A program made the translations under genes and the position numbers. Positions 1,881 through 13,264 of a stretch of DNA of 64,000 bases are shown here, in pieces. The number at the start of each line of letters is the position of its first letter. Within the stretch, counting starts at the first letter, position 1. The stretch comes from the human T2T-CHM13v2.0 reference genome, Homo sapiens. The notes beneath the pieces were generated by a model, which worked only from the letters and a program-made list of their open reading frames with translations, had not been told where the DNA came from and searched no databases. The stretch lies in NCBI RefSeq assembly GCF_009914755.1, contig NC_060926.1; one strand, written 5' to 3'.

Positions 1881-2540
1881 TGTTGTTGCCTCTTAATCCA
1901 GTAGTTCTTCTGTTGATTCTTTTGGCTTTCCTAAGCAGACAGTTGTATCATCTGCTCTTCTTTTCTAATTGCTTCTGATATGTGCATCTGTGTTTACTGG
2001 TGAGCTTGTGCTCTAGGGTTCTTTTGTATGGTCTTAAGAGATTTTATTAGCAGACATTTATGGGCTTTTTGACACTGAGCTTCCCTGAGCTATCAACAGC
2101 TCAGTGGACTCCTGTCTTCCCCTCCTGCTAGCCGGGCACTGACCTCCCTGTGGGTTCCCCAGCAAAGCTGGCACTCTGCCTGAACATTCTGCCTCGCTTA
2201 AGTAGGTTCTCATTTGGGCAAATGCTCAGTACCCAGAGGTGTGTGACACACTGGACCTCTGTGTCTTGCTCAAGGGGATGAATGAGACTTTACTACAGGG
2301 TGTGAGGGTATCACATTGTTAAACATATTTAGACTCTTAAAGTCATTCTGGAATCCCTGCAGAATCCAGAAAGCATTCTGCCTGAGAATATTATAATTTT
2401 TGCTTATTTCTAAGTAGTGCATACAGAGCTGATCACTTTGACTTAATGAGTACATTTTAATTTCATTTGTTTGTTAACTGCTTTACATTACATTACAGAT
2501 TAAGTTTAATATATATTTTCATTGTGCAATTTTATGTCAG

Positions 2541-2642
2541 GAAGAAGGGACCCTAAAACCAGTGAAAATAGTCTTTCCCCTGAAAAGGAACATAACTTTT
2601 CCTACTGTAAAGCTAAGAAGGAACATAGCATGAAACAGCTTG
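2541..2642 (+). CDS. TRAF3IP1: Candidate additional TRAF3IP1 cassette exon (102 nt, phase 1-1), not in the canonical 691-aa protein as I recall it
   Basis: Acceptor ttttatgtcag|GAA, donor TTG|gtaagc. The frame is open: (G)RRDPKTSENSLSPEKEHNFSYCKAKKEHSMKQL(G). Acceptor context and phase match the exons at 4151 and 10286. Confidence 0.6.
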
Positions 2643-2929
2643 GTAAGCTAAGTGAACCATAGTGGAGGCTGTGAGTGAATGTTGAGAGTTGAAAGCTTTA
2701 CTGCCTGGTCCTGTGCTTCTGCTTGGTCATTGAACATGTGGAAGTCTGTGGGGGTGGTTGGCATAGGTGTGGCCCTGCTTGACCTGGGGCCTGCGCTCTA
2801 GAACACTGCCTTCTGGCCAGGGTGGAGAGGGGGCAGAGGGACATGTTGGCCCCATGCAGGGCTGCCCCTGGCCAGGTGAGGATTTCCTACCCTGAGTCAA
2901 TCACAGGCTTAAATTGTCCATTTGAGCCT

Positions 2930-4055: not shown

Positions 4056-4150
4056 CTTGGTGTAATGTAACCCTTATAAATCCCAGCTAAAACAACCAAA
4101 CACAAAATCTTTTATAATATTTTAATCTGTTGTTAACTATTTTATGTCAG

Positions 4151-4246
4151 GAAGGAAGGAGGATAATATTTCAGCTAAAAGTTTAGACTCCATAGTGTCT
4201 GGAATAAATAATGAGCCAAATCAGGAAACGACAACATCAGAAATAG
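4151..4246 (+). CDS. TRAF3IP1: TRAF3IP1/IFT54 coding exon (~exon 8, 96 nt, phase 1-1, cassette)
   Basis: tgtcag|GAAGG...AAATAG|gtaaga. Translates (G)[31 protein letters not shown](G), matching recalled TRAF3IP1. Confidence 0.93.
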
Positions 4247-8883: not shown

Positions 8884-9747
8884 TTTTTTTTTTTTGAGAC
8901 AGAGTCTGGCTCTGTCACCAGGCTGGAGTGCAGTGGCACGATCTCGCTCACTGCAACCTCTGCTTCCCGGGTCCAAGAGATTCTCCTGCCTTAGCCTCCC
9001 GAGTGGCTGGGACTACAGGCATGTGCCACCACACCCGGCTAATTTTTCTATTTTTAGTAGAGATGGGGTTTCACCATGTTGGCCAGGATGGTCTCGCTCT
9101 CTTGAGCTCATGATCCACCGGCCTCAGCCTCCCAAAGTGCTGGGATTATAGGCGTGAGCCACCACACCTGGCTCCTACCCTTTTTTTTTCAGACATGATC
9201 TCGCTCTTACATGCAGGCTGGAGAGTGGTGGCATGATCATGGCTCACTGCAGCCTCGACCTCCTGGGCTCACGTGATTCTCTTGCCTCAGCCTCCTGGGT
9301 AGCTGGGACTACAGGCACCTGCCACCATGCCTAGCTAATTTTTGTAGATATGAGGTTTCGCTATGTTGCCCAGGCTGGTGCCTGCCTTGGCCTCCTAAAG
9401 TGTTGAGACTTCAGGCATGAGCCACTGTGCTTGGCCTTTTTTTTTTTTTTTTTTTCCCCGAGATAGGGTCTTACTCTTTGCCCTGGGCTGGAGTGCAGTG
9501 GCGTGATCACAGCTTATTGCAGCCTAAACTCCTGGACTCAAGTGATCCTACCATCTCAGCCTCCTGAGTAGCTGGGACTACGGGTGTGTGTAACCATGCC
9601 TGGCTAGCTTTTTAAATTTTATATTTTTTTGTGTAGACGAGTTCTCTCTGTGTTACCTAGGTTGTCTTTACTCCTGGGTTCAAGTGATCCTCCCACCTAG
9701 GCCTCCCAAAATGCGGGGATTATAGGTGTGAGCCACTGTGCCCAGCC
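8884..9747 (-). mobile_element. Three tandem antisense Alus (~8884-9173, ~9181-9436, ~9437-9747)
   Basis: Three poly-T tails, each followed by a reverse Alu body. The middle copy has an internal deletion. Confidence 0.93.
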
Positions 9748-10285
9748 TGTTTTTTTTTTCACAGCAAAAATATTTTCTCAGGTATTTGATATTTTTTCTA
9801 TCTTCATAAACTTTGGAACATCAGTCAGTAATTAGTAGACAATATGTGGAAGTTTTCAATATGGCCAGGACTGTGCACTGTGTCCAAAATATTTTTCTTT
9901 TCTTCCTGCATTCCTGAAACAGCCGCCTACTTGCAGCCTCTCAGCTGCTGGGTCTGGCTCTACTGGGGAGGTGAGTGGAGACTGGCAGTGTCAGGTAGCT
10001 CCAGAAATGGGGGGCGGGGGCAGTCTGCTCCTCCTGGCCTGAGTAGACCAAGGATCCACTCATAGTCTGGGGTGTCCTTTCCCTTTCACCCCAGAGCCGC
10101 CCATGGGGGAGGAACATTCTAGATGCATGTTTTCTAAAAGCTGCCTTTGGTCAGTCCTTTGTCAGTCCTAACTTGCAGTGTGGGAAAACATAGATAAGTA
10201 AGTGTGCTCTATGTTAATGAAGCCGCTGATCACCGGCCCTTTGGTGTACAGTCTTAATGACTAATTTTAAACTGTTTTATGTCAG

Positions 10286-10387
10286 GAACAAAAGAAGCTA
10301 ATATTAACTCAACTAGTATTTCAGATGATAATTCAGCTAGTCTGCGGTGTGAGAATATTCAGCCCAACCCCACAGAGAAGCAGAAAG
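10286..10387 (+). CDS. TRAF3IP1: TRAF3IP1 coding exon (~exon 9, 102 nt, phase 1-1, cassette)
   Basis: tgtcag|GAACA...CAGAAAG|gtaaga. Translates (G)[33 protein letters not shown](G), visible in ORF 10279..10497. 96+102 nt = 66 aa, the recalled difference between the 691- and 625-aa isoforms. Confidence 0.93.
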
Positions 10388-13243: not shown

Positions 13244-13264
13244 GTGACTCCACCAGTGATGCAG
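13244..13264 (+). CDS. TRAF3IP1: TRAF3IP1 21-nt microexon (~exon 10, phase 1-1)
   Basis: ctttttctttag|GTGACTCCACCAGTGATGCAG|gtgagg. Encodes (G)DSTSDA(E), bridging the flanking exons in the recalled protein. Confidence 0.92.

What the first reader, a model, noticed from the sequence alone, without database searches (positions are those of the whole stretch)
2530..2648. Intact in-frame candidate exon absent from the canonical IFT54 protein
Seen: a 102-nt stop-free segment (2541-2642) with AG|...G|GTAAG boundaries in the phase (1-1) needed to slot in before the 4151 exon. It encodes 34 charged/Ser-rich residues (GRRDPKTSENSLSPEKEHNFSYCKAKKEHSMKQL). It does not look repeat-derived. Recalled: the 691-aa protein runs ...KNSVE-GRKEDN... 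without this peptide. Inference: a tissue-restricted cassette exon giving a ~725-aa isoform. It may already appear in predicted transcript models; I cannot check that.
Basis: partly seen in the sequence, partly recalled or inferred. Interest (0 to 1): 0.72.

Follow-up and report, generated by a model that had tools for sequence, protein, structure and literature searches.

The report
Annotated alternative exon of TRAF3IP1/IFT54
The 102-base segment is a real, in-frame alternative exon of the cilium-transport gene TRAF3IP1 (IFT54) that is conserved across placental mammals, but it is already in public gene models, so it is ordinary rather than new.

Summary
Window 2541-2642 is a 102-nt stop-free segment with AG|G...G|GTAAG borders, in phase 1-1. 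It fits between the upstream 76-nt exon (ends ...KNSVE + G) and exon 4151.

It is not new. The hub table lists it as an exon of other RefSeq transcripts. The exact 34-residue peptide sits in "TRAF3-interacting protein 1 isoform X4 [Homo sapiens]" (701 aa). It is also in all 120 listed mammalian TRAF3IP1 proteins, from primates to xenarthrans, always in frame. It is as conserved as the neighbouring exons.

A rat RNA-seq table has junction reads for the orthologous 102-nt exon. Inclusion was seen in pregnant uterine artery only, at low counts.

[quoted passage not shown] Tissue restriction of this exon is unproven. The next two exons (4151, 10286) are testis-enriched linked exons in GTEx: PSI 71 in testis, at most 5.6 elsewhere.

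One side observation may be new. The three cassette exons (2541, 4151, 10286) share an identical 14-nt acceptor, TTTTATGTCAG|GAA, which contains an in-frame ATG. This fits an old exon triplication or shared regulation.

The parts
2541..2642 (+). Exon A: a 102-nt alternative cassette exon of TRAF3IP1, phase 1-1. It encodes (G)RRDPKTSENSLSPEKEHNFSYCKAKKEHSMKQL.
   Evidence: The hub table lists it as an exon of other RefSeq transcripts. The peptide is in human isoform X4 and in 120 of 120 listed mammalian proteins.
2530..2543 (+). Acceptor 14-mer TTTTATGTCAG|GAA of exon A. It holds an ATG that is in frame with the exon. The pyrimidine tract is weak (10 of 17 pyrimidines at -20..-4).
   Evidence: Genomic read-through ORFs and the mouse model start 'MSGRRDS'.
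2643..2648 (+). Donor GTAAGC. With the last exon base it reads G|GTAAG.
   Evidence: Read-through ORFs of other mammals continue '...KQLGK' or '...KQFGK', which is G|GTAAG.
2580..2627 (+). Internal direct repeat inside exon A: CTGAAAAGGAACATA and CTAAGAAGGAACATA, 33 nt (11 codons) apart. It encodes PEKEHN and AKKEHS.
   Evidence: family D8, 87% identity.
4151..4246 (+). Exon B: 96 nt, phase 1-1, the next exon downstream. It has the same 14-mer acceptor (4140-4153) and a G|GTAAG donor. It is present in isoform 1 and skipped in isoform 2.
   Evidence: PMC10320715; ASCOT table.
10286..10387 (+). Exon C: 102 nt, phase 1-1. It has the same 14-mer acceptor (10275-10288) and a G|GTAAG donor. It is linked with exon B in GTEx testis.
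13244..13264 (+). 21-nt exon. The upstream 76-nt exon joins directly to it when A, B and C are all skipped, which is the main somatic form in rat artery and mouse retina.
   Evidence: Rodent tables, matched by exon lengths 76, 96 and 21.

Best explanation
Window 2541-2642 is a genuine, evolutionarily old (at least placental-wide) alternative cassette exon of TRAF3IP1/IFT54. It is already in RefSeq and Ensembl-derived gene models. When spliced in between the 76-nt exon (...KNSVE) and the next exon, it adds 34 residues without changing the frame.

The insert is basic and Ser-rich. It lies in the unstructured linker between the N-terminal CH-like domain and the C-terminal IFT20/dynein-2-binding coiled coil.

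Shown here: the exon's anatomy, its presence in models of many mammals, its conservation, and junction reads in rat.

Inferred:
- It is a minor, regulated exon. It has a weak, purine-interrupted acceptor and a strong donor, and it is skipped in most somatic tissue.
- It is probably used with the testis-enriched exons 4151 and 10286.
- It probably acts by changing the length, charge or phosphorylation of the linker. The S-P-E-K motif and the KAKKEH patch are conserved, and the linker helps load dynein-2 onto IFT trains.
For: Anatomy and phase.

Annotation: the hub table lists the exon. The human XP 'isoform X4' carries the exact peptide. UniProt entries that are not NCBI X-models also carry it: macaque, snub-nosed monkey, orangutan, rat, cat, panda, vaquita.

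Conservation:
- All 120 of 120 listed proteins hold the segment, as 45 distinct sequences.
- It is 34 aa everywhere except 32 aa in the 5 Canis rows.
- 47 of the 120 proteins have all four segments. Among them, mean pairwise identity is 0.81 for exon A, 0.82 for the constitutive upstream exon, 0.83 for exon B and 0.75 for exon C. Invariant columns are 10/34, 7/25, 8/32 and 3/34.

RNA: in supplementary table 10 of PMC7139363, event SE8439 is a 102-nt exon between the 76-nt and 96-nt exons. Inclusion reads are 3,2,3 in pregnant animals and 0,0,0 in controls.

Position in the protein: Pfam CH-like domain 5-116, C-terminal region 542-695, exon A at residues 331-364 of the 701-aa form. Solved mammalian structures cover only 1-133.

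The linker is unstructured and needed for retrograde trafficking: PMC10320715, passages read.

Exons B and C as linked exons: GTEx PSI 70.9 in testis and at most 5.6 in the other tissues measured (ASCOT Supplementary Data 2). The span 6236 equals 10387-4151.
Against: - I could read no human junction counts or tissue profile for this exon.
- The ASCOT table has one TRAF3IP1 row, and it is not this exon.
- The mouse retina rMATS table lists events for the 72-nt and 96-nt exons but none for exon A. That file was cut when stored.
- Rat inclusion counts are tiny, 8 reads in all.
- The 120 proteins were retrieved with a query that contained the exon, so '120 of 120' is a biased count. They are related gene models, not independent proof of translation.
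- There is no proteomic evidence. The peptide searches found 0 papers.
- The function in the linker is entirely inferred.
Confidence: 0.85

Rival explanations
1. The main use of this exon is as the first coding exon of a transcript that starts in the upstream intron. Translation would begin at the ATG inside the acceptor (ATG TCA G|GA... = MSG...). The product would be an N-terminally truncated IFT54 without the CH-like domain.
For: The mouse model XP_006529962.1 'isoform X4' (361 aa) starts MSGRRDSRASDNN... and runs on through exon B to the C-terminus. The ATG at -9 is in frame in human. It is present in four read-through ORFs from other mammalian DNA. An IFT54(335-625) construct still supported cilia formation, though ciliogenesis efficiency fell gradually with longer N-terminal truncations; incorporation into IFT-B was shown for the 135-625 construct (PMC10320715).
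Against: The human annotation gives the exon a spliced border at exactly 2541 (hub table). All 120 long models join it to ...KNSVE. The ATG context TTTTATGT is poor (my own reading of the Kozak rule, recalled). Only one such model was seen. ORF callers need an ATG, so 'MSG' ORFs are a biased sample.
Confidence: 0.12
2. It is low-level splicing noise: a fortuitous in-frame pseudo-exon that annotation pipelines pick up but that has no function.
For: Inclusion counts in rat are very low. It is absent from the mouse retina table. The bare AG...GTAAG open configuration occurs about twice per 64-kb strand by chance. No paper discusses it.
Against: Length and frame are kept across primates, rodents, carnivores, cetaceans, ruminants, a mole and xenarthrans. 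Conservation equals that of the constitutive neighbour. The acceptor and donor are conserved in read-through ORFs.
Confidence: 0.06
3. It is a recent, primate-specific or repeat-derived exonisation.
Against: It is single-copy in the assembly. It is present in xenarthran, rodent, carnivore and cetartiodactyl models.
Confidence: 0.01

Closest known systems
RefSeq model 'TRAF3-interacting protein 1 isoform X4 [Homo sapiens]' (701 aa) and its mammalian counterparts
   Same: It contains exactly this 34-residue insert between ...KNSVE and GRKEDN....
   Different: Nothing differs in the exon itself. That model also lacks the 24-aa SASSGE...KAETE segment, so it is 701 aa, not 725 aa.
TRAF3IP1 exons at 4151-4246 and 10286-10387. 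Together they are 66 aa, matching the 66-aa difference between isoform 1 (691 aa) and isoform 2 (625 aa).
   Same: They are neighbouring cassette exons in the same disordered linker. They have the same phase (1-1), nearly the same length (96 and 102 nt), an identical 14-nt acceptor and a G|GTAAG donor. They are also skipped in most somatic tissue.
   Different: They are in the RefSeq-selected transcript, and exon A is not. Their bodies are not significantly similar to exon A. Their testis enrichment is measured, while exon A's tissue profile is not.
Mouse XP_006529962.1, an N-terminally truncated Traf3ip1 model
   Same: It carries the orthologous exon, followed by exon B.
   Different: It begins at the ATG inside the exon's acceptor, so the exon acts as a first coding exon rather than an internal cassette.
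Tandem-duplicated, alternatively spliced homologous exons (general class, recalled from the literature)
   Same: The exons are adjacent, in the same phase and of similar length, and share splice-site sequence.
   Different: Classic cases are mutually exclusive and their encoded peptides are clearly alike. Here the models combine A, B and C freely, and the peptide similarity is not significant.

Membership tests
Alternative cassette exon of TRAF3IP1 | Canonical AG acceptor and GT donor at the stated borders | tested here: met
Alternative cassette exon of TRAF3IP1 | Keeps the reading frame with both neighbouring exons | tested here: met
   102 nt, phase 1-1. The upstream exon ends in phase 1. 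Exon 4151 continues as GRKEDN.
Alternative cassette exon of TRAF3IP1 | Present in some transcript models and absent from others | tested here: met
   Hub table. Human isoform X4 carries it. NM_015650.4 lacks it (hub table).
Alternative cassette exon of TRAF3IP1 | Spliced reads across both junctions in human tissue | not testable with these tools
   No human junction database is on hand. The rat orthologue has junction reads.
Alternative cassette exon of TRAF3IP1 | Conserved as coding sequence in other species | tested here: met
   at protein level only. No orthologous DNA was available, so there is no dN/dS.
Tissue-restricted (testis) exon | High PSI in one tissue and low PSI elsewhere | not testable with these tools
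   Measured only for the linked exons B and C. No row exists for exon A.
Exon family made by tandem exon duplication (A, B, C) | Adjacent exons of the same phase and similar length | tested here: met
   102, 96 and 102 nt, all phase 1-1.
Exon family made by tandem exon duplication (A, B, C) | Sequence similarity beyond chance | tested here: inconclusive
   Acceptor: the identical 14-mer gives 3 matches in the window against 0.06 expected. There are only 105 copies in 3.1 Gb, and a reversed control gives 111.

Exon bodies are not significantly alike. Shuffles reaching the observed score: A-B 797, A-C 733, B-C 60, each of 2000. hhalign P values: 0.064, 0.022, 0.053.
Repeat-derived (exonised transposon) exon | Many similar copies in the genome | tested here: not met
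   One match for the 302-nt query in the whole assembly.

The most novel reading that the evidence does not exclude
Exons 2541, 4151 and 10286 are three copies of one ancestral cassette exon. All have kept the same 14-nt acceptor element, TTTTATGTCAG|GAA, with its in-frame ATG, because it is a shared control point. It would either be a common binding site that switches the whole module on in testis, or an internal start for N-truncated IFT54. Exon A would then be the unstudied third member of a germ-cell-specific linker module of an IFT-B protein. I found no paper that says this.
Probability: 0.3. Interest if true: 0.35.

Novelty: already known. Interest (0 to 1): 0.15.

Why it matters
For annotation, it matters little, because the exon is already in the public models.

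It has some practical weight:
- Relative to the selected transcript the exon counts as deep intron, so variants in it would be ignored in ciliopathy testing. TRAF3IP1 causes nephronophthisis with retinal degeneration (PMC4617596, abstract and passages read).
- Functional work uses the 625-aa form (PMC10320715).
- In GTEx the exons that distinguish the 691-aa 'selected' form are testis-type.
- If exon A belongs to the same testis module, it could bear on sperm flagellum assembly and male fertility rather than on primary cilia.

Tried and rejected
- The 33-aa peptide was under the length limit of the search for homologous proteins. I re-sent the window's own 50-aa open frame.
- The representative search with the 33-aa peptide gave 8 hits. 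Two were unrelated repeat proteins (P0122, P0123). Four were unnamed read-through ORFs. Two were TRAF3IP1 proteins.
- The first MAFFT run timed out and was repeated with lighter settings.
- The protein-profile test of A/B/C paralogy was not significant. Neither was the DNA shuffle test of exon bodies and introns.
- Papers: PMC11304650 concerns exon 6 skipping. PMC3154939 concerns coding variants. PMC12674598 and the chicken preprint concern expression only. None touches this exon.
- The peptide-word search found 0 papers. 'TRAF3IP1' plus 'exon duplication' found 0 papers.
- The supplements of the mouse spermatogenesis isoform paper PMC10953240 have 0 occurrences of Traf3ip1 in the 2 files held.
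- Depth beyond placentals could not be tested. Only the best 120 of 185 hits were listed, all placental. No vertebrate genomes other than the window's own are searchable.
- No structure or complex prediction was run, because the segment lies in a linker described as unstructured.

Full report
**1. What is in the sequence**

Window 2541-2642 is 102 nt. It is preceded by ...ATTTTATGTCAG and followed by GTAAGC. The frame that starts at 2543 is open and reads RRDPKTSENSLSPEKEHNFSYCKAKKEHSMKQL. The other two frames have 1 and 6 stops. The open frame runs 2510-2659.

I mapped a full-length relative onto the window's own assembly and fetched the DNA just upstream of the window. The preceding exon is 76 nt and lies at window -257..-182. 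It encodes TEISTR...KNSVE and ends GAA G|gtactg, which leaves one base. Exon 4151 starts GA AGG AAG GAG GAT AAT.

**2. Is it more than chance?**

I ran a rule-based scan: YAG acceptor with at least 10 of 17 pyrimidines, G|GTAAG donor, 60-200 nt, a multiple of three, open in the phase-1 frame. It returns 4 segments on the + strand and 2 on the - strand. All 4 on the + strand are annotated TRAF3IP1 exons (2541, 4151, 10286, 15114). The configuration alone is therefore suggestive, not decisive. The exon with its flanks (302 nt) occurs once in the 3.1-Gb assembly, so it is not a member of a repeat family.

**3. It is already annotated**

The hub's RefSeq table lists 2541-2642 among 'exons of other transcripts'.

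I searched the protein database with the window's 50-aa open frame. This gave 15 proteins among 24 candidates, all primate TRAF3IP1. The first is 'TRAF3-interacting protein 1 isoform X4 [Homo sapiens]' (701 aa). Its sequence reads ...SKNSVEGRRDPKTSENSLSPEKEHNFSYCKAKKEHSMKQLGRKEDN....

That human model also lacks a 24-aa segment, so it is 701 aa, not 725 aa. A gibbon model with everything is 724 aa. I did not see a human 725-aa record.

**4. Conservation**

A search with residues 312-400 of the human model found 185 proteins among 420 candidates. The best 120 were listed.

- All 120 contain the exon-A segment, as 45 distinct sequences. 87 also contain exon B and 63 contain exon C.
- They come from primates, rodents, carnivores, cetaceans, ruminants, a camelid, a mole and two xenarthrans.
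- No afrotherian, marsupial or non-mammal was among the 120. The other 65 hits were not shown.
- The count is biased, because the query contained the exon. The rows are related gene models. Several are UniProt entries rather than NCBI X-models.
- The segment is 34 aa everywhere except in the 5 Canis rows, where it is 32 aa and still in frame.

47 of the 120 proteins carry the upstream exon and A, B and C together. Among them the figures are as follows:

| Segment | Mean pairwise identity | Invariant columns |
|---|---|---|
| Upstream exon (constitutive) | 0.82 | 7 of 25 |
| Exon A | 0.81 | 10 of 34 |
| Exon B | 0.83 | 8 of 32 |
| Exon C | 0.75 | 3 of 34 |

Over all 120 proteins the invariant positions of exon A are G1, R3 and K24, K27 and K32. 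The S-L-S-P-E-K and K-A-K-K-E-H motifs vary only at a few positions. Human is the only sequence with F at position 20. The others have S, A or P.

Four unnamed ORFs from the representative library read MSGRRDS...KQ[LF][GC]K. They are read-through translations of genomic DNA of other mammals. They show that ATGTCAG|G and the GTAAG donor are conserved, with the last exon base G in three of the four ORFs. ORF calling needs the ATG, so this sample is biased.

**5. RNA evidence**

Supplementary table 10 of PMC7139363 (rat uterine artery, rMATS) holds event SE8439. It is an exon of 102 nt (chr9:98636429-98636531) between a 76-nt upstream exon and a 96-nt downstream exon. These are the lengths and order of the human exons.

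- Inclusion levels are 0.308, 1, 1 in pregnant animals and 0, 0, 0 in controls.
- Inclusion reads are 3,2,3 against 0,0,0. Skipping reads are 4,0,0 against 6,3,2.
- Other rows show that most rat transcripts jump from the 76-nt exon to the 21-nt exon: 16,10,11 and 8,7,8 reads.

So the exon is used, but in a small share of transcripts.

A mouse retina table (PMC4991804, supplementary file 3, cut when stored) has Traf3ip1 events only for a 72-nt exon and for the 96-nt exon. The 72-nt exon is fully included. The 96-nt exon has 0 inclusion reads and 6,7,6,5 / 7,5,2,3 skipping reads. There is no event for exon A.

ASCOT Supplementary Data 2 (PMC6952364) has one TRAF3IP1 row, hg38 chr2:238338362-238344598. 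Its span of 6236 equals 10387-4151. I therefore read it as the linked exons B plus C. Linked exons are one of ASCOT's four event types. PSI is 70.9 in testis and between 0 and 5.6 in every other tissue measured.

PMC10320715 states that isoform 2 (625 aa) matches most other vertebrates' IFT54. The 66 missing residues equal exons B plus C (32 + 34). The 'selected' 691-aa form is therefore a testis-type form. That exon A follows the same pattern is my inference. It was not measured.

**6. Where the peptide sits, and the likely mechanism**

In the 701-aa model, Pfam places the CH-like domain at 5-116 and the C-terminal region at 542-695. Exon A is residues 331-364. Solved mammalian structures cover only residues 1-133.

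PMC10320715 (passages read) describes this middle region as an unstructured linker. It suggests the linker is required for retrograde trafficking, probably by helping IFT-B bind dynein-2. It also cites a Chlamydomonas study in which the linker binds IFT dynein.

My best reading is that the exon lengthens this linker by 34 residues. It adds a conserved Ser-Pro-x-Lys site (a proline-directed kinase consensus, recalled) and a basic KAKKEH patch. This would tune motor or cargo contacts in the cell types that include it. This step is inference. Nothing here tests it.

**7. Side observation: three cassette exons with one acceptor**

Exons A, B and C are 102, 96 and 102 nt and all in phase 1-1. All end G|GTAAG and all begin with the identical 14-mer TTTTATGTCAG|GAA.

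- The 14-mer has exactly 3 matches in the window, allowing up to 1 mismatch on both strands, against 0.06 expected.
- It has only 105 copies in the whole assembly. A reversed control has 111. Three copies on one strand within 8 kb, each at an in-phase acceptor, is therefore not chance.
- The peptides begin GRRD, GRKED and GTKEA.
- The exon bodies are not significantly alike. Shuffles reaching the observed score were A-B 797, A-C 733 and B-C 60, each of 2000. Profile comparison gave P 0.064, 0.022 and 0.053.

An old triplication with divergence of the disordered coding part fits. So does convergent or conserved selection on a shared acceptor element.

The ATG in the element is in frame in all three exons. 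A mouse model (XP_006529962.1, 361 aa) starts at that ATG of exon A. Read-through ORFs of exon B start MSG or MLG. I found no paper on any of this.

**8. Verdict**

It is already in public annotation, so the finding is not novel. The claim of tissue restriction remains open, with testis the best guess. The shared acceptor of the three cassette exons is a small curiosity worth a look in junction and comparative data.

Noticed in passing
window 2530-2543, 4140-4153, 10275-10288: An identical 14-mer, TTTTATGTCAG|GAA, forms the acceptor of three neighbouring phase 1-1 cassette exons (102, 96, 102 nt). There are 3 matches in the window against 0.06 expected, and only 105 copies in the 3.1-Gb genome. 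The ATG inside it is in frame with each exon.
   Followed up: partly
window 4151-4246 and 10286-10387: The two exons that distinguish the RefSeq-selected 691-aa isoform from the 625-aa isoform behave as linked exons in GTEx. PSI is 70.9 in testis and at most 5.6 elsewhere (ASCOT Supplementary Data 2). The assignment rests on the equal span of 6236 bases.
   Followed up: partly
P0129 (mouse XP_006529962.1), orthologue of window 2532-2642: A mouse model of 361 aa starts at the ATG inside the acceptor of the orthologous exon (MSGRRDS...). This implies a transcript that begins in the upstream intron and a protein without the CH-like domain.
   Followed up: no
P0093-P0098, P0104-P0107, P0115 (ruminant models): In deer, cattle, muntjac and musk deer models, exon A is joined directly to later exons. 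None of these rows contains exon B, and the last residue is F instead of L. Exon B may be lost or unused in ruminants.
   Followed up: no
window 2598-2600 (codon 20 of the exon): Human has Phe (NFSYC) where the other listed mammals have Ser, Ala or Pro. The same residue is in the GRCh38-derived model, so it is not private to this assembly.
   Followed up: no
window 2580-2594 and 2613-2627: There is a direct repeat inside the exon, 33 nt apart, with 13 of 15 bases identical. It encodes PEKEHN and AKKEHS, and hints at an internal 11-codon duplication.
   Followed up: no
window 9589-9970: This 382-nt exon of other transcripts has no AG before it. It starts inside a sequence that looks like an antisense Alu (my recall of the Alu consensus), within a masked stretch (9223-9636). 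It is probably an alternative first exon.
   Followed up: no
window 10325-10387: An alternative acceptor inside exon C gives a 63-nt form. The rat table pairs the 96-nt exon and a 63-nt exon as 'mutually exclusive' (MXE1096). Several ruminant and rodent models use the short form.
   Followed up: no
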